64,000 bases of DNA, from NCBI GenBank assembly GCA_963701295.1, contig OY969585.1:3104001-3168000 (forward strand), given 5' to 3'. Both the position numbers and the translations under genes were made by a program. Positions 31,741-51,953 of the stretch are shown piece after piece (position 1 is the first letter of the stretch; every line of letters starts with the position of its first letter). A model generated the notes under the pieces. That model worked only from the letters and a program-made list of their open reading frames with translations, was not told the DNA's origin and made no database searches. The DNA is from Ignavibacteriota bacterium (GTDB taxonomy: Bacteria; Bacteroidota; Ignavibacteria; UBA10030).

Positions 31741-32665
31741 TTACAAAAATCCTCTTGCTTTTAACCATTTTTTGCATGCTTCAGTCCACGATGACTCTGT
31801 GTCAGACGATCGACCTAGACCGTATCCATGTCCACCTGTTTCATACAGATGCAGTTCGCATGGGATACTGAACTTCTTTAAAGCTAAGGTATAGTTGATA
31901 CTGTTTTGAATAGGAACCACATTATCGTTGATTGAATGGACAAGAAATGCAGGTGGTGTTTGTTTGCTTACCTGCAATTCGTTTGAAAATCGGTTCACCA
32001 TTTCCGAAGAAGGATTTTTGCCAAGTAAATTTTCCCTCGAACCTAAATGGGTTATTGATGAATCCATCGAAATAACAGGATATATAAGTATTGAAAAATC
32101 TGGACGGGCATTTGTAGAATCTTTCGGCTCATATACTTTTTCTAGATAATGAGTTGAAATGGTAGATGCCAAATGCCCTCCCGCTGAAAATCCCATGATC
32201 CCAATCTTGTTGGGATCTATGTTCCATTCTTTGGCATGGCGGCGTACAATTCGGATCGATTCTTGTCCGTCCTGCATCGGGCCAATAGTTTTGTTGATCA
32301 TGATGGAAGTATCGGGCAGACGATATTTCAAGACAAAAGCAGTTATCCCAATACTGTTCAACCACATCGCTATTTGAGTGCCCTCGTGTGCAATTGCCAA
32401 TCCCCAATAAGCACCCCCCGGGCAAATAATTACAGCTGTCTTATTCGATTTTTCAACCGGTACTGAGGTACATATCAAGCATCGGAGTCGTCACATTTCG
32501 CATCTTCACCCAATTATCTTCCGAATCAATTGACTGTTTGTAGCTGGAATTGGTAAGAGCTCCAGGAACCTTGCCCTGCCAAATATCGATAACATTGGTT
32601 TGACCGGACAAATGATTTGTATACACCATAAGGAATAATATTGCTGGCACAATTGTTTGTTTCAT
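31741..32665 (-). pseudogene. Secreted alpha/beta-hydrolase carbohydrate esterase, frameshifted
   Basis: Signal-peptide ORF 32453-32665 continues in another frame near 32465 into CPGGAY, GFSAGGHLA, DNVVP, GGHGYG. Confidence 0.8.
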
Positions 32666-32675
32666 ACTCGTGACT

Positions 32676-33314
32676 CTATTTTTTTAATTCTCGTGCAATT
32701 ATTTCTGCCATGACCTTTACAGCTTTTTCGTTGGGATGAATATTGTCGGGAAAATTGCTTCCTTGGTTTTGCATTTGATGGTATAAATCGATGACCTTCA
32801 AGTTATTTGCGTTTGCAAGTCTTTCAATAATTGGAATAACTCCATGCACTACCGTCGAATCATTGATACCCCAGGTCGTTTCAAAGACCGGCACAGGCAG
32901 ACACAGGAAGATTGCCGGATGTGAGGGGATTGTTTTAAATGTATCGATCAGTGCCTGATAATCCTTCTCATATAAATCTGCATGCCAATTTTGAGGCTTT
33001 GTATCATTTGTTCCAAGTTTGATAATGATAATATCGGGTTCGAAAACAAAGACATTTGAAAATTCTTTATAGATCCAGTATGGGAAATCCCCTTTCTTTT
33101 GCAGCGTCGTAGCACTGCGCCCTGAGTTCAGTACAGAATAGTTCGCTCCGAGGATATTGTCAAGCACCACAGGGTATCCGGTTTTACTTTGGCATGCTAA
33201 TCCGTATCCCTCGGTAATGCTATCGCCAACGCAGGCTACCTTTATTTTCTTAGTAGTGAACGCTGATACAACCAGCGCAAAAATAATGAAACTGATCCAT
33301 CCGGGTTTTTTCAT
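32676..33314 (-). CDS. SGNH/GDSL esterase (acetylxylan/sialate O-acetylesterase-like)
   Basis: VACVGDSIT, LGTND, DNIHPN motifs; likely start MKKPGW at 33314. Confidence 0.85.
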   Translation of the reverse strand: MKKPGWISFIIFALVVSAFTTKKIKVACVGDSITEGYGLACQSKTGYPVVLDNILGANYSVLNSGRSATTLQKKGDFPYWIYKEFSNVFVFEPDIIIIKLGTNDTKPQNWHADLYEKDYQALIDTFKTIPSHPAIFLCLPVPVFETTWGINDSTVVHGVIPIIERLANANNLKVIDLYHQMQNQGSNFPDNIHPNEKAVKVMAEIIARELKK

Positions 33315-33399
33315 GGTATTTACTTTCAATAAATGAATTTCATTTGAAGTTTGGGGATATCTGTTCATTGTTTTAATTTCTATTTTGGTTGCCAATTGC

Positions 33400-33531
33400 G
33401 CATAACGGTCGAGGCTATGCACTGTGCGGGATTACGAAGCTGCGTACCTATCACCCGTGACGAAAATTTGCTACAAAAACTGAACTTGCAAAACCACTGA
33501 AACCCGCATTGCGTATGAGCCTTTGTTAGCA
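33400..33531 (-). repeat. Divergent attC of a different family (132 bp)
   Basis: GCATAACGGTCGAGGCTATGCACTGTGCGGG...CCCGCATTGCGTATGAGCCTTTGTTAGCA; box architecture present, sequence unlike the host family. Confidence 0.75.
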
Positions 33532-33542
33532 TACGTTTCGTT

Positions 33543-35054
33543 TTATTTCATAGATTTATATTTGAAGTTCTTAAATTTGACTTTCCCTTCACCAATGGAG
33601 CAAAGGCCGAGTCGTAAACTTAGAAATCCGCCCAATGCATTATGATTATAAGAAGAAACTTCAAGTGAATTTTCTATTTTATTCCATTTGACCCCATCGT
33701 TGCTGTAATACATATTGACTGTGTTGTTCATATTTTCGAGGCGCAAAAATACATGATTTTTAATTGCTTTTCTTTCGGTTGGGAATTGCCAACCCCGCAA
33801 ATTAGCCAAAATGTTTTCCTTATCTGCGCCTATGCCTGAATACGCATTGTTGTTGTAGAAAAGCACCAATCCCCCAGTTGCATCTCCCTCAATAAATAAT
33901 TCTACCTGTGCCATATATGAATGGTCTGAGGGGACACAAATCAAGGGAGAACAATCACCAACAGAATGACCTTTCGCATTAATAACTAAACTGTTGTCGA
34001 TCAAATGAAACCTACTAGTGTCGTATTCGTTATAGAATTTCCATTGTGACTTTAGCTCATTGCCCGCAAAATTATCATCTAAGGTAAATCCGATATCTGG
34101 AACTACACCGACGGGTCTTTTGATGGGTTCGTCTGCTTTAATGTTACCCGGTGTTTTATACCAACCGTCATTTGTCCATTCTATTGGTTGAAGCAAGGTC
34201 TGACGCCCCATATTATAATGTTCATTTTCATATCCATGAAAAACCATCCACCACTTTCCGTTTGCGTCTTCAAATAAAGTACCATGTCCTTTAGACCACC
34301 ATTTTTCAGAATTTTCTTTTGTTCTAATGATAGGGTTGAACGGAGAATTCTCCCAAGGACCCAAAGGCGATTTTGAACGTGCAGAAATTACCATGTGACT
34401 TGTCGCAGGACCTGCTGTACCACCTTCCGCAACTGTCAGGTAATAATATTCACCTCGTTTGACAAGCTTAGGCCCTTCCATACAAAAACATTCAATAGAC
34501 CATTCGCGAGGTATAGGCCAGCCATTGTAAGTGTGTTTGAATTCGCCTGTAACAGAAAGTCCATCCTCAGACAAAGGAACATAACCTCCACTACTAAAAT
34601 ACAAATATCGTTTACCTTCAGCGTCTGTAATATGGCCAGGATCGATATTACCTATTTTCAAATCTACAGGATCACTCCATGGACCTTTAATTGAATCGGC
34701 AGTGACAACATAATTTGTATTATTGGCAGGAAAATAAATGTAGTATTTTTTCTTGTATTTCACTAGGTCGGGAGCCCAAACTGAACCTATATATTTATGC
34801 AATGCATTTATTACTGGTGTCCAATTAATTAAATCTTTTGAATGCCAAATCAATAACCCCGGATAATAATCGAAAGATGAATGAACAATATAGTAATCGC
34901 TGCCATCGCGCAATATACTTGGGTCAGGGTAATCTCCTGCAAAAATTGGATTTAAATAATAACCGTCTCCTTTTTCAGAGGTATTAATTTGATGCTGTGC
35001 ATTCGCTAAGAAACCCAATTGAAGGAGCATTGCTATAATAATAGTTTTCTTCAT
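33543..35054 (-). CDS. GH43 beta-xylosidase/arabinofuranosidase (cassette)
   Basis: NPIFAGDYPDPSI, WAPDL, IDPGH, MEGPKL, GHGTL; C-terminal beta-sandwich; signal peptide. Confidence 0.9.
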   Translation of the reverse strand: MKKTIIIAMLLQLGFLANAQHQINTSEKGDGYYLNPIFAGDYPDPSILRDGSDYYIVHSSFDYYPGLLIWHSKDLINWTPVINALHKYIGSVWAPDLVKYKKKYYIYFPANNTNYVVTADSIKGPWSDPVDLKIGNIDPGHITDAEGKRYLYFSSGGYVPLSEDGLSVTGEFKHTYNGWPIPREWSIECFCMEGPKLVKRGEYYYLTVAEGGTAGPATSHMVISARSKSPLGPWENSPFNPIIRTKENSEKWWSKGHGTLFEDANGKWWMVFHGYENEHYNMGRQTLLQPIEWTNDGWYKTPGNIKADEPIKRPVGVVPDIGFTLDDNFAGNELKSQWKFYNEYDTSRFHLIDNSLVINAKGHSVGDCSPLICVPSDHSYMAQVELFIEGDATGGLVLFYNNNAYSGIGADKENILANLRGWQFPTERKAIKNHVFLRLENMNNTVNMYYSNDGVKWNKIENSLEVSSYNHNALGGFLSLRLGLCSIGEGKVKFKNFKYKSMK

Positions 35055-35212
35055 AATTTGTTTCCTATAGTTTCTAAATAAAAATGTGAATGTATCAATA
35101 ATTTATATTTAACGATCCTGTTTTTTTGATCTTTCTGCAATCGGTTAAATATTATAAGCATATCCTTAAAAATGTGTGCTAACTCGTGTAAAAACGAGAT
35201 GTTATTTTTGCG

Positions 35213-35408
35213 TTCTAACGGATGGCGGCTAAGCTGCCACACTGCAAATTCGCAACATGCACCCAACGAAACAAGTTTATACTAATAACCAAATTAAATA
35301 TTCCCCAACCAACGAGGTAATGAAAAGTTAATTATAAAAACTTAAACTCACCATCAGCCATGTAATTTGCAGTGAGCTCTTACCGTCAGCTTGAGCGCCT
35401 GGTTAGGC
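35213..35408 (-). repeat. attC site (196 bp, long class)
   Basis: TTCTAACGGATGGCGGCTAAGCTG...CCGTCAGCTTGAGCGCCTGGTTAGGC. Confidence 0.9.
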
Positions 35409-35469
35409 CGCTGGTTAAAGTTGCCTGAAATCCTCGTCCCTTATAATGTATGAGCTGCTTTTATTTACA

Positions 35470-37062
35470 CTAGTGCTTAATCATATTCAACAAGAAGACA
35501 TCATTCTCTCGGAGGTTCAGTTCTTTTATAAATGCCACGTTATCTTTTATCTTTACTATTTCATGAGATACAGGAGAACCATCATTCAATTTCTTTATTT
35601 GCTCAACTTGCTGTTTGGTAAGTTGCTTTGGCTCGTTCAACGTAAGATACGTTGAATATGGATCGTTCACTTGATAGCCTACTTTATAGATTTCAAGTGT
35701 ATAGCTACCTTCCGGGATTCCTGAAATACGTACTTTTACTTTTCCTTTTGATTTTGCAGGGAGATCGCGAATATAATACACCTGATTATTTACAGAATCA
35801 CCCGGATGGGTGTTGGTGAAATCCCAGAGAAGCACCTGTACGTTGCTCTTTGCATTTTTGCATGCCCACGAGGATGAATCAGTATTAACCAACTCTGTGT
35901 TACCAAGCATATTCATGAACTTGAAGGAATAGAAGACAGGTTTGTTGATTGCCTGATAATTCAGCAATCCGAATCCACCGTGAAAAGGTGTAAAACGTGG
36001 TCCCGCTTCTTCAAAAATATCTGTGAAGACCCAGTAAGACATCGAATTTGCTGCATTGCCAACTTGCTTAATTTTTTCCAGTACATAGGCAGCCTGATGA
36101 TAGCTATCATGGATAGGATCGGTGGGTGTATATGATGAACTCCATTCGGTATAATGCAATTCCAAATTTGGCATAGCGGAGCTTACAATTTCTTTACGGG
36201 ATTGAAGGATATCGCCGCTGACGCTCATGGAATTTTTATCAAGGACTGTTCCTGAATTTCCAAATTCATCGAGATATCCTTGTTTAACTCCGTATGAATG
36301 GGTACTGATAAAATCGAGAGGAATTGCATTTTTACTGCAGAAATCAATCATCTCAGGTTCCCAGGCAGCTCCGGCAGTAGCAGGTCCCCCAACACGATAT
36401 TCTTTATTCACACTCTTTATGGCCTGCACGCTATATTTATATAATTTGAAGTACTCCTCCTGCGTTCCCGACCAGAATCCGTGAAGGTTCGGCTCGTTCC
36501 AGACTTCAAAATACCAGGTCTTCACTTCCTCTGTACCATAGCGTTCAGTGAAATGAAGAGTAAGATTGCGGATCAAGTATTTCCACTTTTTATAATCCTT
36601 TGGCGGTGTAACATTTCCCCTCCACCAGAAAATAACCTGCTTGCCGCTGGCTAATGCTTCCGGCATGAATCCTAATTCAACAAAAGGTTTCATTCCGATA
36701 CTCAGAAGGTAATCATATAGAACATCGATGTACTGAAAATTATATTCCGGTTTTCCATTTTTATCTTCCCTGTAAACGCCCATATCGTCTGTTAACAGTC
36801 CGTGCATACGAATATATTTGAAATCGCATTCCTTTTTTACATAAGCCAGTTGTTGTTGCCAATCCGCCCTTAATCCCTCATTGGCGCGGCCTGCACCAAT
36901 GCATTCTTTGAACATGGCATTGAAGTTCCCTTTGATTTTATTAAAGTCAAGATTGATAATCCGTTCCTGCAAAACGGATGTGTTATCGGAATTGTCTTGA
37001 GCAAATGTAGGGACTACGAACAAGCTTGTAAGAATGATTAATAATAGATAACAAGTTTTCAT
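35470..37062 (-). CDS. GH39 beta-xylosidase (cassette)
   Basis: YIRMHGLL, PFVELGFMP, FEVWNEPNL acid/base, HYTEW nucleophile, PFHGGFGL; ends AGCGGCCTAAT / GTTAGGCCGCT. Confidence 0.92.
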   Translation of the reverse strand: MKTCYLLLIILTSLFVVPTFAQDNSDNTSVLQERIINLDFNKIKGNFNAMFKECIGAGRANEGLRADWQQQLAYVKKECDFKYIRMHGLLTDDMGVYREDKNGKPEYNFQYIDVLYDYLLSIGMKPFVELGFMPEALASGKQVIFWWRGNVTPPKDYKKWKYLIRNLTLHFTERYGTEEVKTWYFEVWNEPNLHGFWSGTQEEYFKLYKYSVQAIKSVNKEYRVGGPATAGAAWEPEMIDFCSKNAIPLDFISTHSYGVKQGYLDEFGNSGTVLDKNSMSVSGDILQSRKEIVSSAMPNLELHYTEWSSSYTPTDPIHDSYHQAAYVLEKIKQVGNAANSMSYWVFTDIFEEAGPRFTPFHGGFGLLNYQAINKPVFYSFKFMNMLGNTELVNTDSSSWACKNAKSNVQVLLWDFTNTHPGDSVNNQVYYIRDLPAKSKGKVKVRISGIPEGSYTLEIYKVGYQVNDPYSTYLTLNEPKQLTKQQVEQIKKLNDGSPVSHEIVKIKDNVAFIKELNLRENDVFLLNMIKH

Positions 37063-37128
37063 TTTTTGCTCGCCTTTTAGTGTTAACATATTTCATATTT
37101 TACATCGAAACAAATTTCAGCGTAAGCG

Positions 37129-37354
37129 GCCTAATGGATGGCAACTAAGCTGCGGCACTGATAATTTGCAACATGCACCCAACGAAACAAGTTCATGCTG
37201 AAAGCCTAATTAATAAATACTAAACTTATAGGTACTAGAAACTGAATAATAAAAACGAAAACCCACTGCCAGTCCTGCTTAACGTACCCATTTACCCGCC
37301 ATGCTTTATCTTTGGGCGGGCGCTATTTCCGTCAGCTTGAGCGCCTGGTTAGGC
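37129..37354 (-). repeat. attC site (226 bp; R' mutated to ATTAGGC; 30-bp palindromic insert)
   Basis: GCCTAATGGATGGCAACTAAGCTGCGG...CCGTCAGCTTGAGCGCCTGGTTAGGC. Confidence 0.85.
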
Positions 37355-37374
37355 AGCGCAATTATTTCTTGTTT

Positions 37375-38010
37375 CTATGATACCTTTTCTGCTACTGCGG
37401 TAATCCAATTTTTTTCAAGAATACAATCTATTTTAGCGAGATGGTACCCCGCTTGATTGAGAAATTCTTTATACTCTTCTGGAGTATGAATTTGCATATC
37501 AATTAATGTTGTCCACTTAGTATTCCGTTTTTCAAATCGAATATCTTGATACACTTCATTGACTATCAAAAGTGTTCCCTTGGGTTTTAAAACACGTTTA
37601 ATTTCTTTTAAGTCATCAATCAAATGGGGCCAGAAATAATATGTTTCAAATGCTGTAATAAGATCGAATGTATTATCCTTAAATGGCAAAGATGAAACCG
37701 TTCCAAACATTATTTCAACTTGACCTTGTCTAATTGGAGTCTCATTTATTTTTTTTGATAGCTTAACCATGTCTTCAGAATAATCAATTCCAAAAACCTT
37801 TCCTCTAGGTGTAGAGAGTGATAATTCTTGAATTGCTTTGCCGCCACCGCAACCAATATCGAGTATATATGCATCTGGTTTAATAGAAACATGATCAAGC
37901 CCCCAGCGTCTAACTTTTGCATGGCCAGAATTCATGCTTCTTCCGATAAATTTTCCCAATTTACCTGACGGTTTTCTACATTGCTTTAATAATTTTTCAA
38001 TCAATCCCAT
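37375..38010 (-). CDS. Class I SAM-dependent methyltransferase (cassette)
   Basis: ILDIGCGGG, LPF.DNTFD, RVLKPKG. Confidence 0.88.
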   Translation of the reverse strand: MGLIEKLLKQCRKPSGKLGKFIGRSMNSGHAKVRRWGLDHVSIKPDAYILDIGCGGGKAIQELSLSTPRGKVFGIDYSEDMVKLSKKINETPIRQGQVEIMFGTVSSLPFKDNTFDLITAFETYYFWPHLIDDLKEIKRVLKPKGTLLIVNEVYQDIRFEKRNTKWTTLIDMQIHTPEEYKEFLNQAGYHLAKIDCILEKNWITAVAEKVS

Positions 38011-38040
38011 TCGATATTATCTCTCATATTTTATAGTGCT

Positions 38041-38080
38041 GCCTAACGGATTGGCGCTAAGCTGCGACGATGAAACTTTC
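38041..38080 (-). repeat. attC half-site (L'/R' only)
   Basis: GCCTAACGGATTGGCGCTAAGCTGCGACG then directly the stop of the next ORF. Confidence 0.75.
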
Positions 38081-38083
38081 TAT

Positions 38084-38491
38084 TTATTCATTAAAACTTG
38101 CCCCACAATGAGGACATAATTTACTATCCTTTGGCAAAGGCTTTTTACATTCGGAACATTGATATTCAGATGAATTTGAAACCATATTATTGGCGGCATA
38201 TTCCTTCTTTAACGCCGCTTTAATCATCTTTTGTGTAATACCTAGTTCCTTTGATAACCTGTTAAATTTTTTGGTAATGAAAGAAAGAATAAAGAGAAGT
38301 AATATTCCTCCCCACAATATAGCACCTAGTGATATAAACAAAATAAGATTAATAATAAAAAAAGAAAACCAAAACAATTTTAAATTACTATTCATCGTTT
38401 CCCTGACTTCTTTCCATTCTTCAAATTTTGATGGATCTACTTTTATTTCTGGAAAATCCTCTAAAGTTAGATCTTCAAAATTCTTTTTCAT
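38084..38491 (-). CDS. Hypothetical membrane protein with C-terminal zinc ribbon
   Basis: 2 TM segments; CSEC...CPHCG. Confidence 0.75.
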   Translation of the reverse strand: MKKNFEDLTLEDFPEIKVDPSKFEEWKEVRETMNSNLKLFWFSFFIINLILFISLGAILWGGILLLFILSFITKKFNRLSKELGITQKMIKAALKKEYAANNMVSNSSEYQCSECKKPLPKDSKLCPHCGASFNE

Positions 38492-38519
38492 GTCTTTATC
38501 TCCTTAAATTATTAATGCC

Positions 38520-38715
38520 GCCTAACGGATGGCAACTAAGCTGCGGCAACGTGAAGCCGCAAGTTGCTGAAAACGAAACAAGTTCATGCTGAGAACCAAA
38601 TTTATAAGTATCAAAGTTATAGGTACTAGAAACTGAATAACAAAAACGAAAACCCACCACCAGCAATGCTTAACGGCCATACGCTCCAACCGTCAGCTTG
38701 AGCGCCTGGTTAGGT
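38520..38715 (-). repeat. attC site (196 bp)
   Basis: GCCTAACGGATGGCAACTAAGCTGCGG...CCGTCAGCTTGAGCGCCTGGTTAGGT. Confidence 0.9.
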
Positions 38716-38733
38716 TGCGCCTTGGTTTATAGT

Positions 38734-39399
38734 CTATTTACCAATTCGTCGTTCAATTTTTAGATTTGCGATAACACCAAATCCATTACACCAAAGACCA
38801 ACTGAACCATCTTTTCTATTGGACAGTTCGTTTACTACAAGACTTGGATCGCTTGCACCGTTTACATAAACTTTTACCTCAGGCTTTTGTATTACAATCT
38901 TAGCATGGAACCACTCATCACCATTGGGAGCAGGATCAATGCCTTTTTCATATTCTCCAGTGTGCTCGTCGCGTAAACGTTTCCAAGTCCAATCTGGATG
39001 AGACGTGTATTGAACGACATGAGATTTATTAATGGGATTCGGAGAACGGAAATTAAACGGTCTAAAATAGATCGCATCATAAGTATTTTGATTAACGACA
39101 CGGAAAGCGATACCAACAAAACTGCTTTGTGGCGGACCACTTTTACCCTTTGCGTCAAACTCGATGGTACCGTTTGTGAATGTAAAGTTATCAAGCCAGA
39201 CGATTTGGTCACCATCGGTTTTTGTTATCATAATTGCTTCTGAAGAATCTTTTTTTGCAAGCTCTGCCGAAATGAACTTACCTTTCCAGTTTGTTCCATT
39301 TAGTACAGTTTTCAGAACCGGTTTAAAAAAACTCTGAGCATTCAATGAAGATATAAATAGAAATACTAAACACACGACCGATAATATTTTGAATTTCAT
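38734..39399 (-). CDS. Secreted DUF1080-like (3-keto-disaccharide hydrolase fold) protein (cassette)
   Basis: Signal peptide; F.NGTIEFD, FVGIAFR, WFHAKIV...VYVNG...GSVGLW. Confidence 0.65.
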   Translation of the reverse strand: MKFKILSVVCLVFLFISSLNAQSFFKPVLKTVLNGTNWKGKFISAELAKKDSSEAIMITKTDGDQIVWLDNFTFTNGTIEFDAKGKSGPPQSSFVGIAFRVVNQNTYDAIYFRPFNFRSPNPINKSHVVQYTSHPDWTWKRLRDEHTGEYEKGIDPAPNGDEWFHAKIVIQKPEVKVYVNGASDPSLVVNELSNRKDGSVGLWCNGFGVIANLKIERRIGK

Positions 39400-39455
39400 T
39401 GCTTATCATTCCTTTCAATTAACTATTTGAGTATCCATAAAATATTGATGGCGCA

Positions 39456-39612
39456 ATCTAACGGACCGGCGCTAAGCTGCGGCGCTGATAATTTTCAATA
39501 TTTTGAAAACGAAACGAGTTCACGCTAATAACTTTCAATTCTGTAATCAACCTATGCCCGCCTTGAATTTCACACCCAGCTGGCAACCGTCAGCTTGAGC
39601 GCCTGGTTAGCT
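39456..39612 (-). repeat. attC site (157 bp)
   Basis: ATCTAACGGACCGGCGCTAAGCTGCGG...CCGTCAGCTTGAGCGCCTGGTTAGCT. Confidence 0.9.
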
Positions 39613-40242
39613 GGCGTTATTAATTTTCTTAATAACTTTATCAACCCGGTTAACTTGTGAAGTATTTTCTAACTCAGAATATCTTTCCTTCAACAAATCA
39701 AGAAATTGCTTTTTATTTGATGATGTTATTGCAATTAATGATTTCTCAGCATACATCGGCAACTGTTTCCCTGCACATCGGTTTAATTGTTTCATTAGCA
39801 AAGGAAATGCAACTTTTGTGTATTTAGATATACTTGACAACCTCGCCAGAATAGAAACACCATGATCTACTGTGATAACCGATCCTTCATCCAATGCTTC
39901 AACAATTTCTGGGAGAAGTTGCGAAACATGTTCCGGATTGATAGCGGTGATTGTGTCTAAGGCTGTCATAGCACCCCATGCCAACCTATTATTTCGGCTT
40001 TTAAGAATTTCCCCAAATTCCTTATAATATGGCGCAATCAATTCAGCAGCGCCACGTTCTCCAATTTCGTAAAGCACTTTGATACAATCACTTTGAATGT
40101 TTTTATCGTCGTTCTCCAAATTATCTACTAATTCTTTTATCCAATCGGTCTTCTTAGTCTTGATAATTTTGATAGCCAATTCTTGATTTGGATTATCATC
40201 TCGCCGATTGAGAGATGAAGCAAGCAATTTTAACACACTCAT
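39607..40242 (-). CDS. Hypothetical HEAT-repeat-like protein (cassette)
   Basis: Helical ORF (IQSDCIKVLYEIG, NNRLAWGAM); stop inside R''. Confidence 0.7.
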   Translation of the reverse strand: MSVLKLLASSLNRRDDNPNQELAIKIIKTKKTDWIKELVDNLENDDKNIQSDCIKVLYEIGERGAAELIAPYYKEFGEILKSRNNRLAWGAMTALDTITAINPEHVSQLLPEIVEALDEGSVITVDHGVSILARLSSISKYTKVAFPLLMKQLNRCAGKQLPMYAEKSLIAITSSNKKQFLDLLKERYSELENTSQVNRVDKVIKKINNAS

Positions 40243-40265
40243 TTTCTTTTCCTTTAGATAACGCC

Positions 40266-40422
40266 ACCTAACGGATCGGCGCTAAGCTGCGGCACTGATA
40301 ACTTCCATAATGTACTAAACGAACCAAGTTCATTCACTTCACTTTCAATTCTGCACTTGACCTCTACGCGCAATGCAAAATGCACTCGCGCCTTTACCGT
40401 TAGCTTGAGCCGCAGGTTAGGC
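40266..40422 (-). repeat. attC site (157 bp)
   Basis: ACCTAACGGATCGGCGCTAAGCTGCGG...CCGTTAGCTTGAGCCGCAGGTTAGGC. Confidence 0.88.
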
Positions 40423-40436
40423 CGCCATATTTTGAT

Positions 40437-41387: not shown

Positions 41388-41406
41388 ATTATTCCTTTTA
41401 TATGGC

Positions 41407-44190: not shown

Positions 44191-44261
44191 AAATGGTACA
44201 CTTCTTCATAGATGAGGAATGATTTAGTGATTATTTTATATAAGCATAAGACTTTCAGCAA

Positions 44262-44412
44262 GCAGGATCTGCGCTAAGCTGCGGCGCTGATAAATTTCAA
44301 AATGCACCCAACGAAACAAGTTCATGTTGGCTCTTTCAATTTTGTACTGACCTATGCGCGCCATGCTTAACGTACTCACGCTTATTCCGTCAGCTTGAGC
44401 GCCTGGTTAGGC
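44262..44412 (-). repeat. attC site with degenerate R'
   Basis: GGATCTGCGCTAAGCTGCGG...CCGTCAGCTTGAGCGCCTGGTTAGGC; RYYYAAC end lost. Confidence 0.75.
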
Positions 44413-44420
44413 AACAAAAG

Positions 44421-45273
44421 TTATTTGATATTATATTGTTTCATTAATTCTAGAAGATCTGTTGATGTAACTGCATGTCCCAAGACAAGCTGCGTCTGAC
44501 TTCTAAGATAATTTAGGACTTCTGCTACAACCTGCCCCTCTGTAACAGTGTCTTTTTTCCCGCTGTCTGATATTTTATAGAATGAAAAACCATATTTTTG
44601 TTTAGATAATGCATCTAAAGCACTCTCAATATCCGAGGGAATGGGTGCAAGCTTGCTAGACACCACTCCAATAACTTCACCATCATCAATGTCTAGTACC
44701 TGGACCGCCAGAATTTCCACTGTTAAATGCTGCATTTACAACCCACCGTAAAGACAATTGTCCAGATGACGTTAGAACTTGATCAATACCAGATAAATAT
44801 CCTACAGTCAGTAAAGGTGAAACACCATTGTAACCAGAAGGAAAACCCCAAGTTGTGATAGTGGATCCAGTCATTATTTCTGTCTTTGTGCTAAGTCTTA
44901 GCAATGGAACTTTTAGAGACGATGAGGGTTTGAGAATTGCTAAATCTTTGTTTGCATCGCTTATTACTGAATCCACTTTTGATTTTTGACCATTAGAATA
45001 TATTAGAAGTATTTCTTGTTTTGGACAATTTGCGATCACATGTGCGGCTGTAGCAATCCAGTCATTGGTAACAAAAAAACCTGTTCCACCCATTCTCGTA
45101 TTCAAGCAGATAATCCGCAGGACTGCTTGGTTAGCGATTTTGCCCATTTTACCGGGAGATTCATTTGTTATTGGTGCTGAAATTAATATAGAGTTTCGAT
45201 CTGTTTGTCCAGTACAAATAGTGACGAAAATTAATTCTACAGCAAACAAAATAGCGAGCATAAATGTTTTCAT
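44421..45273 (-). pseudogene. Trypsin-like serine protease, frameshifted (cassette)
   Basis: GTGF, TAAHV, DLAIL, NSGNSGGP, then frameshift near 44700 into VLDIDDGEVIGVVSSK. Confidence 0.85.
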
Positions 45274-45291
45274 AAAATGACTCCTTTTGCT

Positions 45292-45388
45292 GCCTAACGA
45301 CCGGCGCTAAGCTGCGGCAACAATTCTTTTTCACTTGCTTATCCATCCCTCGATACCGGTCAGGTCAAGTTTGAGCGCCTGGTTAGGC
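45292..45388 (-). repeat. attC site (97 bp, short variant)
   Basis: GCCTAACGACCGGCGCTAAGCTGCGG...GTTTGAGCGCCTGGTTAGGC. Confidence 0.75.
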
Positions 45389-45893
45389 CGTGCCCGATTT
45401 GATCAAGTAACTCAACACGGTCATGATTTCGTCGAACGAACCAATCCGCCAGTAATGGACGATATTCTCGCTGCCACTCTTCGGGAAGAAGAAAGAAATC
45501 GCCTGCAACTTCCCTGCGACATCGCTTTGATCCACAATGGCATGGCCAAGATGTGCCGCCGGTAATATTAATGTTGTAATCAATTGTGATCTCTTCTCCT
45601 GTTGAGATTCCTCGGCGAGCAACAAGGTATGATATTTCTCCTTCAAATAATTGATAGGCATTTGGATCGCAACAGTGATTGACATGGCGATCTGGAAATC
45701 CTAACAGTAGCACTTTACCGTCGGGATAGTCACAATGGTCTATTCGCTCACCGAGTTCCTCTCGGATAGGGGAGTCGACTGTAATTTCTCGAATGACATT
45801 GACACGGCTAATACGCTCGCCAATTCGAAACGGTCGTACCGCAAATATTCCCAAGCCCTGAATGGAAGATGTTTTGACTTCAATGTTGTTCAT
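45360..45893 (-). CDS. SET-domain protein-lysine methyltransferase-like (cassette)
   Basis: S.IQGLGIFA, VNHCCDPN, GEEITIDY, post-SET CHCGSKRC. Confidence 0.88.
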   Translation of the reverse strand: MNNIEVKTSSIQGLGIFAVRPFRIGERISRVNVIREITVDSPIREELGERIDHCDYPDGKVLLLGFPDRHVNHCCDPNAYQLFEGEISYLVARRGISTGEEITIDYNINITGGTSWPCHCGSKRCRREVAGDFFLLPEEWQREYRPLLADWFVRRNHDRVELLDQIGHGLTRRSNLT

Positions 45894-45927
45894 AATGAAA
45901 TCGAATTAGCTAACTGCTTTTCACACG

Positions 45928-46079
45928 GCCTAACGGATCGACGCTAAGCTGCGACGATGAATACTTTCAAAGTGTACTATCACCGCGCAAGATTGATAAC
46001 TTAAATTCATAATCTAAACTTTCCACGCGCGGTAATTTGTACAATTGCTCCAACCGTCAGCTTGAGCGCCTGGTTAGGG
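45928..46079 (-). repeat. attC site (152 bp)
   Basis: GCCTAACGGATCGACGCTAAGCTGCG...CCGTCAGCTTGAGCGCCTGGTTAGGG. Confidence 0.9.
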
Positions 46080-46093
46080 CGCAAACCTTATTA

Positions 46094-46492
46094 TTAAATT
46101 CTGCGTTCTTCAACAATAGTTCCTTGGTGATACACAATCTTCCAATTATCATTTGAGCGGCGCCAAATGGTTGCTCTCCGCGTTATCCGATCTCTCTGAA
46201 TCAAAGTGTAGGTAACAAGTTAATGATCCGTGGCTATTTCAAGGCAATCAAAGTCCTTTGTTTTCCAAATATCTTCGGTTGGATTTTTAAACCGTTTTTC
46301 CAATTCTTCTAAGACATATTCACGATTGTAACGTCTACCTGAAGCTCCGACTTCCCAGAAAGTCGTTTCTGTCATATTCTCAAAATCCTTACGAGTAGTT
46401 CCATATTCTGGCCGATGAAAGATAGGTTCAAGCTTCATCAGTTCTTTCAATACATCCGTTGTCTTTTGTTCTGCGATTGAATGTGATACCAT
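46094..46492 (-). pseudogene. DUF4440/NTF2-like protein with in-frame nonsense codon
   Basis: FWEVGASGRRY...IATDH*LVTYTLIQRDRITRRATIWRR...WKIVYHQGT; TAA at 46220 in an otherwise intact frame. Confidence 0.85.
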
Positions 46493-46523
46493 ATGTTTTC
46501 TTTTATTGAGGAAATTGTTTGCG

Positions 46524-46685
46524 CCCTAACGGACCGGCGCTAAGCTGCGGCGCTGATAATTTTCGTAATGCAACCAACGAAACAAGTTCATGCTTATAAC
46601 CAAATTGATAAGTATCAAAGTTATAGGTACTAAAAACCGAATAATAAAAACGAAAGCCCACCACAAGCAATGCTTAACGTACTCA
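46524..46685 (-). repeat. attC partial (L'/R' plus long loop; R''/L'' missing)
   Basis: CCCTAACGGACCGGCGCTAAGCTGCGG...GCAATGCTTAACGTACTC then unrelated sequence. Confidence 0.8.
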
Positions 46686-46714
46686 ATAACTACCTTCATC
46701 GTGTGAGCACAATG

Positions 46715-47648
46715 CTACTTCGATTCTTTCCTACCTTGAATATTCAAAAGTGGTGTCAATTTTTGGTCGTACGGCAAAATAATTGTCGAGTTATTGGGAC
46801 TATTCACTACATCTTTGAGCTGGGAGATGTAATACCATTGCAGATAATTCTGCGTCAATCCATTGCCAATTATTTTTTGAGCATTCGAAATACCCTGAGC
46901 CTCAATTGCTTTTCGTTGCGCCTCCTTCTGAGCATACTGTATGGTATACTCCATTTGTTGCGCTTCCTGAGAAGCTTTAAGTTTTGCCGCAATGGCATCG
47001 CTGACAGTTGCCGGTGGTTCTACATTTCTAATAAGCACATTATCCAAAATTACGCCTTTACCGTTCAATTCCTGCAGCAATAATTCAGTAACCATCTTCG
47101 TATAGGCATCTCTTTGGAGAGACATAACATCGCTTGCGTCAAACTTCGTGGCAGCATTTACCAGGGCAGTTCTAATGGCTGGCCTTACAATCACTTCTTC
47201 ATAGTTAAGCCCAATATTGCTGTAAACATTATTTGCTTGCGATGGATCTAAATGATACCAAACAGCTGACATCAAATTTCAGAATAAGTTGATCGCGGGA
47301 TAATGTGGCAACAGCATCATCACCGACCTTATTCCCTTCGTTTTTGACTGAAGACATAGTGTAGTCTTTCGTTTGAATAGACATTTTATACACATCAGTT
47401 AAAAAAAAGATCGGATGAATACCGGCTGGGAGAGACTGTGAACCAACATTGCCAAACGTAACAGGAACTCCTACATATCCTGGTTCAATAATCGTAAAAG
47501 AAGCAGAAAGCAAGGATAATACTGCCAATCCAAGACTTGCAAATCCGAGTTTCTTAAAATTAAAGGGGTAAGAGACATTCCGTGGCTTAACGGTCAGCAG
47601 AGCAATTCCTACAGCAGCAAACAACACAATAAAGAATGAAGCGGTCAT
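46715..47648 (-). pseudogene. SPFH/prohibitin-family membrane protein, frameshifted
   Basis: IEPGYVGV..FG.V...L.AGIH and P.IRTAL...AIAAKLKASQEAQQ in two frames joined near 47265. Confidence 0.82.
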
Positions 47649-47787
47649 GATTTTCTCCTTTGTTTTTTGTTCTTATTACTAATTTTTGATATTACAATTT
47701 ACAAATTTCTAGAGCACTCCGCGAGCGTCTATATATTTCCTTCTGCTTATAAACTTGTTCGTGCGGGATATTGCATCCGCGTTCTGA

Positions 47788-47813
47788 CCGTTAGCATGAG
47801 CCGCCGATTAGGC
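47788..47813 (-). repeat. Degenerate attC half-site (R''/L'' only)
   Basis: CCGTTAGCATGAGCCGCCGATTAGGCGGTAC, complementary to cassette start GCACCGCCTAAC at 49124-49135. Confidence 0.6.
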
Positions 47814-47863
47814 GGTACCCAGAGATGCGTTCATAAAATGTGATAGAGTCTCACAATAATCAC

Positions 47864-49042
47864 TTAGTGTTTTATTGGGGAAAGTTTTTTCAACATATCT
47901 ACGGCATTAGTATTTTTTGGATCCAACTCAAGAGATTTCTTGTAGTTCACAATCGCAAGATCATTGTTTCCGTCATCCATGTACGCTTCACCCAGACTAT
48001 CGTACACATTTGATGACGCGGGGTAGGCCTCGACATTAAGCTGTAAAATCTGAATAGCTTCTTTTGTTTTTTTCATATTTAGGAGTGCATAACCAAGATC
48101 ATTCAATTCATTTTCACCAAGGTTATAGTTGTTTGGTTCATTTTGCTTTAGACGATGGTATTGAGCTAATGCGGAGCCAATACCTTTCTGTCTTATTGTC
48201 GAAAACAACGACTCAAGTATTGTCTTCTTACTGTAGGCCAATTTAATTCCCGTCGTCAATGCTTCTCCCGGGGTGGCGAAATGCTCGACATTATTGAGAT
48301 TTTCGAACTCCATTTCCAAGCCTGCGTAGTTCCTTTTCGCTATGACGTCTGAGAATTCTGCAATTCGCTTTGGAAGTCCTTCCGCAAGAATCAGTTTTAC
48401 AGGAAGATCGGTATGCCTTCGTGCGTAGTCAACTTCGACGTCAAAGAATCTATCATCAAACCCTTCGAGTACGATGTACCGCCTGAAAAGTGTCGGTTCT
48501 TGGAAAAGTGCGTAGAAACCAAAATATGCTCCTTGTGAACCTCCCAACAGAGTACGATCCGTCGAATCCGCTTTAAGATGGGTTTCTACATAGGGAATCA
48601 GTTCTTCTCGAAGAAATCGTAGATATTTTTCAGCTCCAAGTGTAAATGGGTCGAAATCCCTATTGCGCATGTTCTTTCCGCCCTCTTTGGGTAGTAGTTT
48701 ACTACCATACGCGGGGCTCACAATGATAAGCTTAGGCACAAAGTGTCCGTAGTATAGATATTGTACTATGTCTGTGACCATAGCAAACATATGATCTCCA
48801 TCTAAAAGATAGAGCACCGGATAGGATTTAATGGAATCATTGTATCCTTGTGGAAACCATATCTTGATGAAATAATCCGTGCCTGTGTTGATCGAATGAA
48901 TCTGCCTCAGTTCAGTGCCATCAATAGGAACTTTCGGATAGACTGTCCTGGCAGTTGAGTCATTTTGCGCACTGACATTGCTGCAAATACTCAACAATGC
49001 ATATAAAAGAGCACCTACTAGAAAAGTGAAATGTTTTTTCAT
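47864..49042 (-). CDS. Secreted IroE/Fes-like esterase with C-terminal TPR (cassette)
   Basis: YPVLYLLDGD, GGSQG nucleophile elbow, H; TPR LNDLGY...NVYDSLGEAY...SLELDPKN. Confidence 0.82.
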   Translation of the reverse strand: MKKHFTFLVGALLYALLSICSNVSAQNDSTARTVYPKVPIDGTELRQIHSINTGTDYFIKIWFPQGYNDSIKSYPVLYLLDGDHMFAMVTDIVQYLYYGHFVPKLIIVSPAYGSKLLPKEGGKNMRNRDFDPFTLGAEKYLRFLREELIPYVETHLKADSTDRTLLGGSQGAYFGFYALFQEPTLFRRYIVLEGFDDRFFDVEVDYARRHTDLPVKLILAEGLPKRIAEFSDVIAKRNYAGLEMEFENLNNVEHFATPGEALTTGIKLAYSKKTILESLFSTIRQKGIGSALAQYHRLKQNEPNNYNLGENELNDLGYALLNMKKTKEAIQILQLNVEAYPASSNVYDSLGEAYMDDGNNDLAIVNYKKSLELDPKNTNAVDMLKKLSPIKH

Positions 49043-49128
49043 GACTATTCCCTCCTATGTTTGATTTGTTGTTCGCGCATCAGCCTAGCAACGATAACCT
49101 ATTGCACAGTTGATAAACGTACAGCACC

Positions 49129-49170
49129 GCCTAACGGATCGGCGCTAAGCTGCCGCACTGATTACTTTCG
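49129..49170 (-). repeat. attC half-site (L'/R' only)
   Basis: GCCTAACGGATCGGCGCTAAGCTGCCGCACTGATTACTTTC. Confidence 0.75.
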
Positions 49171-49271
49171 ATATCGTTCTTTATTATCTTCAACCCATGA
49201 GTACATTTGCTTCCCTCTACTATCGAAGAATGCATTTTGCTCAAACATTCAGGGAAAAACGAGCAACTTTC

Positions 49272-51953
49272 TCACTTTAATAGAATAAGTGCCTTCGTCT
49301 TAACAAAGTCACCTGTGTGTAATTGATAGAGATATACACCGCTGGAAAAGTTTTGGGCATCCCATTCCACCGAATAGGAACCAGGTTCTTTCCATTGATC
49401 AATGAGAACAGCAACTTCTCTACCAAGGAGATCATAAATCCTTAGTGAAACTTGACTCTTTTTTTGAATAGAAAATGAAATCTTGGTTGATGCATTGAAT
49501 GGATTGGGGTAATTCTGCTGCAAATTCAATTGACATGGAAGAGCATGACTCAGAGAAACAGATGTAATCCCTATCTCAGAACCATTGTAATGAATGACCG
49601 TATCGAATTTACTGGGACTAATTATACCAATACCCTTTCCAGTATCCACCCAAATGATATTGAAAATTTTATTTTGAGACATACCATTAAATGTTCCCTG
49701 TCTAGATCCGATGGTTAGCTGTTTTGAAGAATCATGATAAGTAATCGGGATAACTGAATATACTCCTCGTTCATAATTGTAGTTGTCATTTTCGTCTTCG
49801 TATAATGTGAATTGTCCATCCGCACCTCGATAAATTCGCAGTTCGAGCGTATCTGCAGGTTTTTCAGTGGCATATTGCATAAAAGGTCCTATCGGAATGA
49901 TGGAACCGGCTTTCACGAATAAAGGGATAGTTTCAATTGGTGCTTGAGCATCAATCGTTTGACCACCATTAAGAGATTCACCTGTCCAGAAATTATACCA
50001 TATGGTTGATTTCGGCAAATAAACTTTTCGCGTTTTAGATGTGTTGGTGCTAGTACTATATGATTGAGTGGTTACCGGATTTACAAGAAATGCCGGACCA
50101 AACATATATTGATCCTGAATATTAGTAATTGCTACGTCCGTTCGAAAATCAAAAGCAAGCGCTCGCATGATTGTATAGGATTCGTTGGTAACCTTCCAGG
50201 CGAGGGAATAGATATACGGTAGGAGTCGGTACCGCAGGTTATCGTAATTCAATAAAATTGATTTTGTATTTGCATCCCAGTTATTTGAAAACAACGCGCG
50301 TTCGCCTTTTCCATGAATTCTAAATATCGGACAGAAAGTGCCAAATTGGAACCAACGAGTAAACAATTCTCTGTTTGCAGCGGTTGTCCAATCGGGAGAT
50401 GTCCAGTTTAAATGATACCCTCCAATATCTGACGTCCAATATGGAATCCCGGAGACACAGGCGTTAATTGCCTGAGGCACTTGAATTGTATAAGAACTGA
50501 AGGTACACGTAATATCGGACGACCAAAGGGTTGTTGCATTTCGCTGCTGTCCGGCAAATGCCTGACGCACAAGGAAGAATGCTCGCTTTCCTGATATATC
50601 AGTTCTCCAGTTCTTATAAAGACCAATAGTATGTGTTAAGGAATAGGTATTGAAATAATCGATCCCTTTGCCAAGTGCAAAAATACTTTTTCTGCGTGCA
50701 TCTAGAAGTCCCCCATTGTCCGGTTCGCATTGGTCTACCCACCATGCATCCCATCCATAAGGAGTAATAAGACTATTATTCGCCTGTCTCCAATATATAT
50801 CTCGCGCATTGGAATTATGAGCATCATAGTATGTGTCATAATTATGTGTCATCACATCCTGCCAGGTAATATCAGTCAATCCTCCTGCGTTCTTCAACTC
50901 ATTAAAATTATTTGTTCCGCTTGCGAAAACCGGCCAAATCGAAATCATCGCATGAATGTTTGCTTTGTGTAACGAATCCACCATCGCTTTGGGATTAGGA
51001 TATCTGGTAGGGTTCATCACGTGCGAACCGATTACATCTGGTTCCCAGTAATACCAATCCTGAACGATGCAATCAACAGGGATGTGATTGTTTCGGTAAT
51101 TGTCTTTGACGGATAACACTTCAGCCTGGCTCTGATACCTATCCTGCGATTGAAACAATCCAAAACTCCACTTGGGAAACATTGGAGTCTGGCCAGTGGC
51201 TTCGCGGTAAAGTGAGATGATATGATCAAAGTCCGGACCGTAGAAAAAATAATAATCTACCATCGTACCGCTCTCCGATACATATTTGTATTTTGTATTG
51301 CCTGCCTCAGCACCATAAAAATTCGATGCCGAGTAGTTATCCCACATAAGTCCATACCCTTTGTTGGATAGTAAAACCGGAATTGCGCCAGTCATATATT
51401 GGATAGCCATATCCTGATTTCGGCCTTTGTAATTCATGGATCCGGCATCTGTCGGATGACAGCCCAATCCAAACAAAGCTTCATCCGCAGGAGATTGAAA
51501 GAGTGTTTCACTATTGTATGTATTGATGCCGGCAATGGTCGCCGCCGTCATATTCTTTCCTACAGAATCATCTTCGGCAAGTATAAGCGCACCATTAAGT
51601 TCGGTATACTGGATTGAATTGGTCAACTTTGTCAATTTGATTTTTATTTTACCGGTTGAAATAATTATCTCGGTTGAGCTTTCAGCAACTTGAAACTGAG
51701 GCTGAGTTATCCACGAGTTTGTTACTACCAAGGACGTTTTTGAAGAGAGTGCCGTCAACGATGTATATTTTACTTCAACGACATCCTCTTTACAAATTTT
51801 AATCTTCATGAAACCATTATCCAATGTGCATGTGATTCCATCGGCATCAGTTGTATACGATACTATGGAAGCCAGCGCAGTGTGACTGACTACGAAGAAA
51901 ATTAGGACAATTGTTATCGAGACAATGATACATTTATATTTAGACTTGTTCAT
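49272..51953 (-). CDS. GH31 alpha-xylosidase-like glycosidase with T9SS CTD
   Basis: WWVDQCEP, LWSSDI, PYWTSDIGG, FRIHG; CTD LQQNYPNPFN...SSGVYLYQL...KALILLK. Confidence 0.9.
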   Translation of the reverse strand: MNKSKYKCIIVSITIVLIFFVVSHTALASIVSYTTDADGITCTLDNGFMKIKICKEDVVEVKYTSLTALSSKTSLVVTNSWITQPQFQVAESSTEIIISTGKIKIKLTKLTNSIQYTELNGALILAEDDSVGKNMTAATIAGINTYNSETLFQSPADEALFGLGCHPTDAGSMNYKGRNQDMAIQYMTGAIPVLLSNKGYGLMWDNYSASNFYGAEAGNTKYKYVSESGTMVDYYFFYGPDFDHIISLYREATGQTPMFPKWSFGLFQSQDRYQSQAEVLSVKDNYRNNHIPVDCIVQDWYYWEPDVIGSHVMNPTRYPNPKAMVDSLHKANIHAMISIWPVFASGTNNFNELKNAGGLTDITWQDVMTHNYDTYYDAHNSNARDIYWRQANNSLITPYGWDAWWVDQCEPDNGGLLDARRKSIFALGKGIDYFNTYSLTHTIGLYKNWRTDISGKRAFFLVRQAFAGQQRNATTLWSSDITCTFSSYTIQVPQAINACVSGIPYWTSDIGGYHLNWTSPDWTTAANRELFTRWFQFGTFCPIFRIHGKGERALFSNNWDANTKSILLNYDNLRYRLLPYIYSLAWKVTNESYTIMRALAFDFRTDVAITNIQDQYMFGPAFLVNPVTTQSYSTSTNTSKTRKVYLPKSTIWYNFWTGESLNGGQTIDAQAPIETIPLFVKAGSIIPIGPFMQYATEKPADTLELRIYRGADGQFTLYEDENDNYNYERGVYSVIPITYHDSSKQLTIGSRQGTFNGMSQNKIFNIIWVDTGKGIGIISPSKFDTVIHYNGSEIGITSVSLSHALPCQLNLQQNYPNPFNASTKISFSIQKKSQVSLRIYDLLGREVAVLIDQWKEPGSYSVEWDAQNFSSGVYLYQLHTGDFVKTKALILLK

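What the first reader, a model, noticed from the sequence alone, without database searches (positions are those of the whole stretch)
31741..51953. Xylan-debranching enzymes carried in the cassette array next to a xylose utilisation locus
Seen: GH43 and GH39 genes (1.5-1.6 kb) are bounded by attC sites, the GH39 with complementary ends. An SGNH esterase, an alpha/beta esterase, a DUF1080-like protein and a 2.7-kb GH31 also lie in the array. Four of these cluster at the distal end, 3-8 kb from the PUL-like locus, which encodes xylA/xylB but no beta-xylosidase in this window. Known: cassettes are mostly short (<1 kb) resistance, TA, defence or unknown genes. Inference: an integron acting as a shufflable CAZyme reservoir that complements the neighbouring locus.
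Basis: partly seen in the sequence, partly recalled or inferred. Interest (0 to 1): 0.8.

Follow-up and report, generated by a model that had tools for sequence, protein, structure and literature searches.

The report
Plant-sugar enzymes as integron cassettes
Two large genes for predicted plant-sugar-cutting enzymes (GH39, GH43) are packaged as integron gene cassettes that recur in relatives' arrays and likely descend from ordinary sugar-operon genes, which could help show how cassettes are made; their place beside the xylose locus is likely coincidence.

Summary
The array is real. GH39 (1.6 kb) and GH43 (1.5 kb) are true cassettes. The same GH39 cassette, with the same ends, sits among other neighbours in four related genomes from two families. 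GH43 carries an attC of a second family.

Other parts are weaker. The SGNH and alpha/beta esterase share one unit with a decayed attC, and the latter is frameshifted. GH31 lies between two half-attCs and is a xyloglucan-type alpha-xylosidase. The array has an attI but no integrase; the genome's only intI lies 395 kb away.

'Complements the neighbouring locus' is not supported. That locus is a xyloglucan/xylose locus. Five relatives have it with no attC beside it. The genome has fixed beta-xylosidase homologues elsewhere. This array holds 3 of 11 array-borne glycosidases, no enrichment (p=0.39).

The wider point holds: this Ignavibacteria-type lineage stores large glycosidases in arrays. Cassette GH39s form one clade nested among operon-borne orthologues 77-82% identical, a natural test case for cassette genesis. 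The scan noted a glycosidase cassette before in another genome (e1-9814116).

The parts
1337..28828 (.). Right half of a xyloglucan/xylose utilisation locus: two TonB-dependent receptors, LacI, xylB, xylA, sodium:solute symporter, two GH31 alpha-xylosidase homologues, GH13. GH74, GH95, GH51, GH2, GH3 and GH97 lie left of the window. Neighbour of the array, not part of it.
29062..29142 (+). Boundary block with a 3' fragment of tRNA-Met (29100-29142); the same block marks the distal end of two other arrays
30271..30458 (-). Most distal complete host-type attC
31673..31734 (-). Decayed attC (inner fragment only) behind the esterase pair
31741..32665 (-). BD-FAE alpha/beta esterase (PaeX/AxeA1-like), frameshifted near 32466
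32676..33314 (-). SGNH esterase matching the C-terminal half of the AxeA1 model, below its cut-off; 11 bp from the BD-FAE start
33398..33535 (-). attC of a second family ('type B') closing the GH43 cassette; bottom strand folds into an attC-like hairpin
33543..35054 (-). GH43 beta-xylosidase/arabinofuranosidase homologue, 503 aa, catalytic motifs intact; cassette
35174..35183 (-). Inner core site matching the GH43 cassette's own R'' (8 of 10)
35211..35410 (-). Complete host-type attC of the GH39 cassette
35470..37089 (-). GH39 beta-xylosidase homologue (only GH39 of the genome), catalytic motifs intact; cassette with complementary ends and a worn type-B attC relic after the stop
37127..37356 (-). 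attC upstream of GH39 with the crossover triplet changed to AAT
38734..39399 (-). DUF1080-like cassette (weak hit); 88% identical paralogue in another array
47864..49042 (-). Esterase-TPR cassette, complementary ends, own attC truncated
49128..49174 (-). R' half of an attC, downstream of GH31
49272..51953 (-). GH31 alpha-xylosidase homologue with a T9SS-type tail; keeps an upstream stretch also found before a non-cassette orthologue; not a complete cassette
52069..52112 (-). R'' half of an attC, upstream of GH31
30271..64000 (-). Whole cassette array within the window; its attI lies at genome 3172041-3172126, about 4 kb beyond the window, without intI

Best explanation
The GH39 and GH43 genes are old cassettes at the decaying distal end of an integrase-less satellite array of a sedentary chromosomal integron; they likely descend from sugar-operon genes, and their position beside the xylose locus is likely incidental. 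SHOWN: attC sites and complementary ends; the same GH39 cassette in arrays of four other genomes; one intI and at least six attI-headed arrays in the genome; glycosidases in four other attC clusters; non-cassette orthologues in operons. INFERRED: the single IntI works in trans at the attI copies; new cassettes enter at attI and push old ones outward, so the four distal enzyme genes are the oldest stratum; GH39 was captured once for this clade, probably first with a type-B attC and later re-framed with a host-type attC; GH31 entered by a non-integrase event into or between attCs. PREDICTED: the intact GH39 and GH43 proteins are exported exo-glycosidases that add oligosaccharide-trimming capacity if expressed from a local promoter, independent of the locus's LacI.
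For: Cassette anatomy. GH39 orthologues in G014, G004, G044 and G060 (85-91%) share leader and trailer and have other neighbours. They form one clade (98/91; 96/95 in a second tree), sister to non-cassette G002/G011/G015/L200 and nested among operon-borne genes. A type-B attC relic precedes the host R'' in G004, G044 and G060. One intI over cut-off, six attI copies plus a partial one. 100%-identical cassettes in separate arrays. Half-sites gather in distal parts of several arrays. Locus conserved without attC in 5 of 5 relatives. No enrichment: 3 of 36 vs 8 of 188 ORFs, p=0.39.
Against: Direction of transfer is not settled for GH43: the tree is unresolved, and operon-linked copies in L111 and perhaps G002 show an R''-like relic after the stop, which fits cassette-to-chromosome domestication as well. 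The branch joining cassette and non-cassette GH39 clades has moderate support (99/97 in one tree, 89/90 in the other). My two attC models can miss other families: G039's GH39, first scored as non-cassette, sits in a decayed array of a third type. GH39 and GH43 are adjacent here and also adjacent in operons of G011, L200 and L110, so their pairing may not be pure chance. In G014 the GH39 cassette also lies beside carbohydrate genes (two GH94). No expression or recombination data.
Confidence: 0.68

Rival explanations
1. One reading: the array is kept beside the xylose locus as a shufflable, co-regulated supply of xylan-debranching enzymes that the locus lacks.
For: Four enzyme genes in a row 3-8 kb from the locus; GH39 and BD-FAE have no paralogue elsewhere in the genome; GH43, GH39 and two esterases would act together on acetylated xylo-oligosaccharides; the GH31 orthologue lies inside the same locus in G001 and G019.
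Against: Locus is xyloglucan-type; the xylanase and glucuronidase are at 2.06 Mb and beta-xylosidase homologues at 1.73-1.75 Mb; no attC beside the locus in 5 of 5 relatives; candidate operator absent from the cassettes (best 4-6 mismatches of 14) but present twice before the fixed GH43; array and locus converge, so no read-through; damaged sites and a frameshift.
Confidence: 0.1
2. The enzyme genes are long-standing cassettes that circulate among Bacteroidota-type and Ignavibacteria-type integrons; some 'fixed' operon copies are domesticated former cassettes, so these genomes record cassette decay rather than cassette birth.
For: Type-B attC on GH43 here, behind a GH78 at 2.697 Mb, and as relic behind GH39, GH31 (G060) and GH43 (G019, L111); type-B sites are spaced like an array in G061; widespread attC decay; G015's GH39 sits among same-strand small genes without attC.
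Against: Most outgroup GH39 and GH43 loci show no match to either attC model (157 of 159 loci), and those read by eye lie in glycosidase operons (L195, L200, L202, L170, L110); the data reject one clade of all cassette-type GH39 (AU p=0.0009), which fits repeated capture better than one ancient cassette.
Confidence: 0.17
3. The repeats are not working recombination sites; the genes are a fixed island into which attC-like repeats spread.
For: Many half sites; host attCs often fold weakly (R-box pairing probability 0.10 for the GH39 site); GH31 is indeed not a cassette.
Against: An intact IntI with the same attC family beside it; cassette-specific complementary ends of 12-20 bp in most units; same cassette among different neighbours in other genomes.
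Confidence: 0.05

Closest known systems
Sedentary chromosomal integrons and CALINs (CALIN definition and origins: passage of PMC8618304; orientation and length: passages of PMC5371416; complete integrons already noted in Ignavibacteriae: passage of PMC9024848)
   Same: attC-delimited same-strand cassettes, toxin-antitoxin-like pair, IS110 in attC, many unknown genes, bottom strand on the leading-strand template (inferred from GC skew), no intI beside this array.
   Different: Each satellite keeps its own attI; cargo includes 1.5-3.4 kb glycosidases, whereas surveyed cassette genes have a median of 402 nt and carbohydrate metabolism is the most depleted category (odds ratio 0.158; passages of PMC7370490).
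Saccharophagus degradans 2-40 core integron plus five satellite arrays (passages of PMC2386152)
   Same: Polysaccharide degrader with one repeat family spread over a core array and satellites, with homologous cassettes shared between them.
   Different: There all but three of 40 core-array genes had no assigned function and the regions were low in GC; the passages read name no carbohydrase cassette. Here 11 glycosidases lie in arrays of near-host GC.
GH39 beta-xylosidases of the 6UQJ/4EKJ type; GH43 beta-xylosidases/arabinofuranosidases (6MS2, 5Z5D); GH31 alpha-xylosidases BoGH31A and Xyl31A (5JOU, 2XVG)
   Same: Full-length sequence matches (E 4e-130, 1e-52, 1e-158) with catalytic motifs present.
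   Different: Encoded as integron cargo; activity untested; the GH43 match is distant, so its substrate is open.
Plant-substrate-use cassettes of rhizosphere integrons (passage of PMC11089894); signal-peptide enrichment in cassettes (passage of PMC10661359)
   Same: Cassettes that encode exported proteins and plant-carbohydrate use.
   Different: Those are category-level counts; the passages read name no glycoside hydrolase and trace no cassette to an operon orthologue.

Membership tests
Integron gene cassette (GH39) | Complete attC just after the gene | tested here: met
   35211-35410, HMM E 2e-36, arms can pair
Integron gene cassette (GH39) | 5' core site complementary to own R'' | tested here: met
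   10 of 10
Integron gene cassette (GH39) | Same unit among different neighbours elsewhere | tested here: met
   G014, G004, G044, G060
Integron gene cassette (GH39) | Both flanking crossover triplets intact, so excisable alone | tested here: not met
   Upstream site reads AAT
Integron gene cassette (GH43) | attC after the gene and matching 5' core | tested here: met
   Type-B attC 33398-33535, hairpin; inner core 8 of 10
Integron gene cassette (GH31) | Complete attC after the gene | tested here: not met
   Only an R' half downstream and an R'' half upstream
Integron gene cassette (SGNH + BD-FAE) | Complete attC after the unit | tested here: not met
   Inner fragment only; the unit does occur at 97% with other upstream DNA in run X1
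Integron gene cassette (all) | IntI-mediated excision or integration | not testable with these tools
   Needs a recombination assay or circle PCR
Complete integron | intI adjacent to the array | tested here: not met
   Only intI at 3566721, 395 kb from this array's attI
Complete integron | attI at the head of the array | tested here: met
   86 bp at 96.5% to the site beside intI; named attI by position and repeat layout, not by assay
CALIN | attC cluster without neighbouring intI | tested here: met
Xylan utilisation locus (neighbour) | Xylanase or beta-xylosidase in the locus | tested here: not met
   GH10 only at 2.06 Mb; locus holds GH74, GH31, GH95, GH2, GH51, GH3, GH97; its GH3 was not typed
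GH39 beta-xylosidase | Family domain with acid/base and nucleophile motifs | tested here: met
   NEP and YTEW motifs aligned to 6UQJ
GH39 beta-xylosidase | Activity on beta-xylosides | not testable with these tools
   Needs an enzyme assay
Member of the locus's LacI regulon | Shared operator upstream | tested here: not met
   Candidate operator from phylogenetic footprint absent before GH39, GH43, SGNH, GH31; the operator itself is a prediction

The most novel reading that the evidence does not exclude
This lineage runs one integrase over six or more attI-headed satellite arrays and repeatedly turns large polysaccharide-locus genes into cassettes. GH39 was captured at least twice from operon ancestors that still exist in the same genus, one lineage was re-framed from a type-B to a host-type attC, and GH31 between two half-attCs is a gene caught mid-way. 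Together these give a dated natural series for how integron cassettes are born, a process the literature calls largely unknown.
Probability: 0.33. Interest if true: 0.78.

Novelty: new variant of a known kind. Interest (0 to 1): 0.52.

Why it matters
Carbohydrate genes are the most depleted class in cassette surveys and cassette genes are short (PMC7370490). A lineage whose arrays hold 1.5-3.4 kb glycosidases, some the only copy of their family in the genome, shows that integrons can spread feeding enzymes across bacterial families. [quoted passage not shown] Here cassette and operon forms of one gene coexist at 77-91% identity in one genus, so boundaries, promoters and relic sites can be compared directly. 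The local story (array serving its neighbour) is probably not real, which lowers the interest of this exact spot.

Tried and rejected
Rfam scan of the window: no match. A generic R''/R' plus folding heuristic over 159 homologue loci did not separate cassettes from controls and was dropped; part of its output was cut. Whole-site folding z-scores were weak (-2.8 to +1.2), so folding alone is not used as evidence. Idea that GH39 and GH43 cassettes came from one two-gene cassette because they share a leader in relatives: rejected, as at least five unrelated G000 cassettes carry a similar leader. The 215-bp repeat at 4982/15104 first looked like a shared promoter; it is a truncated lacI copy. The tRNA-Met fragment at 29100 was tested as an island end: the full tRNA is at 1.81 Mb and the fragment recurs at other array ends, so no single island could be drawn. 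Promoter and terminator scan of 31000-38200 gave chance-level counts (26 vs 22.7). Sequencing runs: no RNA holder listed; all 12 rows had small shares, so habitat and expression are not inferred. Joints run between attC repeats at 85% likeness and are not taken as excision events. Glycosidase share in arrays (11 of 224) against an evenly spaced sample outside (2 of 115): p=0.23, with unequal E-value limits (1e-8 vs 1e-25), so only 'no sign of depletion' is claimed. GH43 tree unresolved. No structure or complex prediction was run; families were clear from sequence. Paper searches that found no report of named glycoside hydrolase cassettes; on cassette origin and multiple attI. The library lacks most subscription papers, and supplements were not read (the cargo tables of bioRxiv 2025.02.12.637893, closed, may list integron-borne CAZymes).
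Full report
SETTING. The window is G000:C1:3104001-3168000 of a single-contig 3.64-Mb genome, 42% GC. Record titles of close GH43 homologues include Ignavibacteria, and an earlier scan note calls the genome Ignavibacteriota-type; I use that as a lineage label only.

THE ARRAY. A repeat family of 150-230 bp recurs between minus-strand genes from 30271 to the window's end. A profile built from 16 window copies gave 190 hits in the genome at E<=1; at E<=1e-3 there are 173 (127 full, 42 half, 4 middle) in 17 clusters, 29 of them in this array. One intact integron integrase exists (TIGR02249, 453 bits, cut-off 265) at 3566721, beside an array of the same repeat. The 86 bp next to that intI recur at 96.5% at genome 3172041, the head of this array, and at four more array heads plus one partial copy. 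No intI remnant lies at this head. Most cassette bodies end in 12-20 bp of complementary sequence. A 279-bp gene-less cassette near 62350-62650 is 100% identical to one in the 2.48-Mb array, which points to recent exchange between arrays. By GC skew the attC bottom strands lie on the leading-strand template, the orientation that PMC5371416 (passages) links to low excision. IntI is found in 12 of 15 other genomes of the genus and the attC motif in 12 of 15.

THE GENES NAMED. GH39: intact, closest to solved beta-xylosidases (E 4e-130), only GH39 in the genome, complete attC, ends complementary at 10 of 10. The attC in front of it has AAT for AAC, 1 of 4 such changes in 140 sites; from established attC chemistry (recalled) this would block its excision alone. 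GH43: intact, distant match to beta-xylosidases/arabinofuranosidases (E 1e-52). Its attC is of another family (type B); its own core lies 33 bp inside the unit. Type-B sites occur once more in G000, behind a GH78 at 2.697 Mb, in 6 of 60 relatives and in 3 of 33 genomes reached through GH43 loci, with array-like spacing in G061. SGNH and BD-FAE match the two halves of the AxeA1 model below cut-off, share one unit with a decayed attC, and BD-FAE is frameshifted; contigs from runs X1 and X2 lack the extra base. GH31 is closest to xyloglucan alpha-xylosidases and sits between an R'' half and an R' half. About 70 bp upstream are shared with a non-cassette orthologue in G011 and include a promoter-like spacing (read by eye). 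None of its 7 orthologous loci in 6 genomes has an attC, and in G001 and G019 it lies inside the xylose locus. DUF1080-like and esterase-TPR are cassettes with no shown link to carbohydrate.

THE NEIGHBOUR. With its part left of the window the locus holds GH74 xyloglucanase, GH31s, GH95, GH2, GH51, GH3 and GH97: a xyloglucan set feeding xylA/xylB. Xylan genes are elsewhere: GH10 with GH67 at 2.06 Mb; LacI paralogue, GH43 and glucuronoyl esterase at 1.734 Mb; a GH3 closest to beta-xylosidase 7ZB3 (E 2e-193) at 1.745 Mb. A candidate operator conserved before lacI in five genomes recurs before a receptor gene, GH31b and twice before the fixed GH43, but not before any array enzyme (55 genome matches, 20 intergenic, so the motif is loose). 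The locus is conserved in G001, G002, G004, G006 and G019 with no attC in the stretches fetched, 13-22 kb downstream in four and 2.6 kb in G001; G015's contig ends too soon. G004 has both cassettes, on other contigs.

GENOME-WIDE CARGO. Pfam scans of 224 ORFs in and around the other arrays found 8 more glycosidases: glucoamylase-like PF10091, GH116, GH5, GH3, GH43, GH29, GH42, GH16, plus CE4, BD-FAE and SGNH. Five have an R'' right after the stop (GH116, GH16, GH5, the glucoamylase-like gene, GH43-CBM6); GH42-GH29 and GH3 sit at half sites. This array's share is 3 of 36 ORFs against 8 of 188, p=0.39; with esterases 5 of 36 against 11 of 188, p=0.15. Proteins with a T9SS-type tail are 29 of 225 in arrays and 73 of 2708 outside (the profile was seeded from array proteins, which inflates this).

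RELATIVES. Near-full GH39 orthologues (66% or more) occur in 9 of 60 relatives. Four (G014, G004, G044, G060; 85-91%; two families) have host-type attC parts and the same leader and trailer, among different neighbours. G002 (receptor...GH39, GH42, GH43, GH29), G011 (LacI, GH5, GH43, GH39) and a second G004 copy are operon-borne. G039's lies in a decayed array of a third repeat type; G015's lies among same-strand small genes without attC; G059 and G016 show none. Of 79 metagenome loci one (L168) has an attC remnant and is nearly identical to G014, so not independent. In a 44-row tree the cassette copies form one clade (98/91), sister to G002/G011/G015/L200; a 20-row tree agrees and rejects adding G039 to that clade (AU p=0.0009). 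Rows were picked as the closest hits plus a few outgroups; the frameshifted G060 and second G004 copies were left out. In G004, G044 and G060 a 27-base stretch matching the type-B consensus precedes the host R'' (E about 0.05 alone, so suggestive), worn in G000 and G014. GH43 orthologues (8 of 60 relatives) are host-type cassettes in G004, G014 and G001 (5' side only seen), operon-borne in G052, G002 and G011; of 80 genome loci none is flanked by either model, but L111 shows a type-B-like relic by eye, and the tree is unresolved.

MECHANISM. Shown: anatomy, distribution, trees, synteny. Inferred: one IntI serves several attI copies; cassettes age outward, so the enzyme cluster marks the oldest, decaying stratum; GH39 was captured from an operon and re-framed. 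Untested: expression, activity, recombination.

LITERATURE. PMC7370490 (passages): median cassette gene 402 nt, carbohydrate category odds ratio 0.158. PMC5371416 (passages): de novo formation largely unknown; long cassettes may reflect strong selection. PMC2386152 (passages): core plus satellite arrays, functions unassigned. PMC9024848, PMC8618304, PMC8352920, PMC10661359, PMC11089894, bioRxiv 2025.02.12.637893 and 2026.03.17.712381: passages only; carbohydrate functions appear at category level. Searches returned no paper naming glycoside hydrolase cassettes traced to operon orthologues; coverage is limited to open papers.

VERDICT. A known kind of element with unusual cargo and a useful evolutionary series. 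Observation partly confirmed; reservoir idea holds for the lineage; complementation of the neighbour does not. Interest 0.52.

Noticed in passing
G000:C1: 224100, 1796905, 2464749, 2834100, 3172041, 3446560 (partial), 3566437: Six near-identical attI copies head separate arrays, but only one has intI; three keep part of the intI upstream region. A one-integrase, many-attI layout.
   Followed up: partly
window 29062-29200; G000:C1:2419791-2419926, 2819413-2819550, 2400834, 2440830, 1811368: A block with a tRNA-Met 3' fragment and terminator recurs at the distal ends of several arrays; a tRNA-Arg fragment lies just outside this array's attI. Arrays may have been split or copied via tRNA ends.
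   Followed up: partly
window 41405-44412: A second case of genes between attC halves: a mandelate-racemase-like gene and a frameshifted T9SS-tail gene, GC 47-50%.
   Followed up: no
window 57080-57713: SnoaL-like cassette (GC 51%) whose R'' matches a second core site 26 bp inside its leader, the same nested layout as GH43.
   Followed up: no
G000:C1:2694883-2696885 (L258): GH78 rhamnosidase followed directly by a lone type-B attC, outside any array.
   Followed up: partly
window 59589-60683 and at least seven other arrays sites: Identical IS110-family copies inserted at the R'' end of attC sites; recent spread.
   Followed up: partly
window 30945-31010, 55810-55835: Small hairpin inserts interrupt two attC sites; the first recurs in three other attCs of the genome.
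   Followed up: no
window 41458-42760, 44421-45273, 46715-47648, 31741-32665: Four apparently frameshifted genes in the distal two thirds of the array; decay or assembly error not separated except at 32466.
   Followed up: partly
all arrays of G000: Proteins with a T9SS-type C-terminal tail make up 13% of array ORFs against 3% outside; several share the same cassette end sequence, so the tail could be a recombination handle for loading secreted proteins.
   Followed up: partly
G000:C1:3546568-3550292 (L025/L026): GH42-GH29 pair in the intI array, translationally coupled like the operon order in G002 and G004: a possible captured locus fragment.
   Followed up: no
window 4982-5673: Truncated lacI copy plus an IS fragment before the first receptor gene: the receptor-LacI unit was duplicated.
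   Followed up: no
L086 (G060:C30), L085 (G001:C93): Relatives' arrays carry further enzymes: glucuronoyl esterase and GH31 with a type-B relic in G060, GH5 in G001.
   Followed up: no
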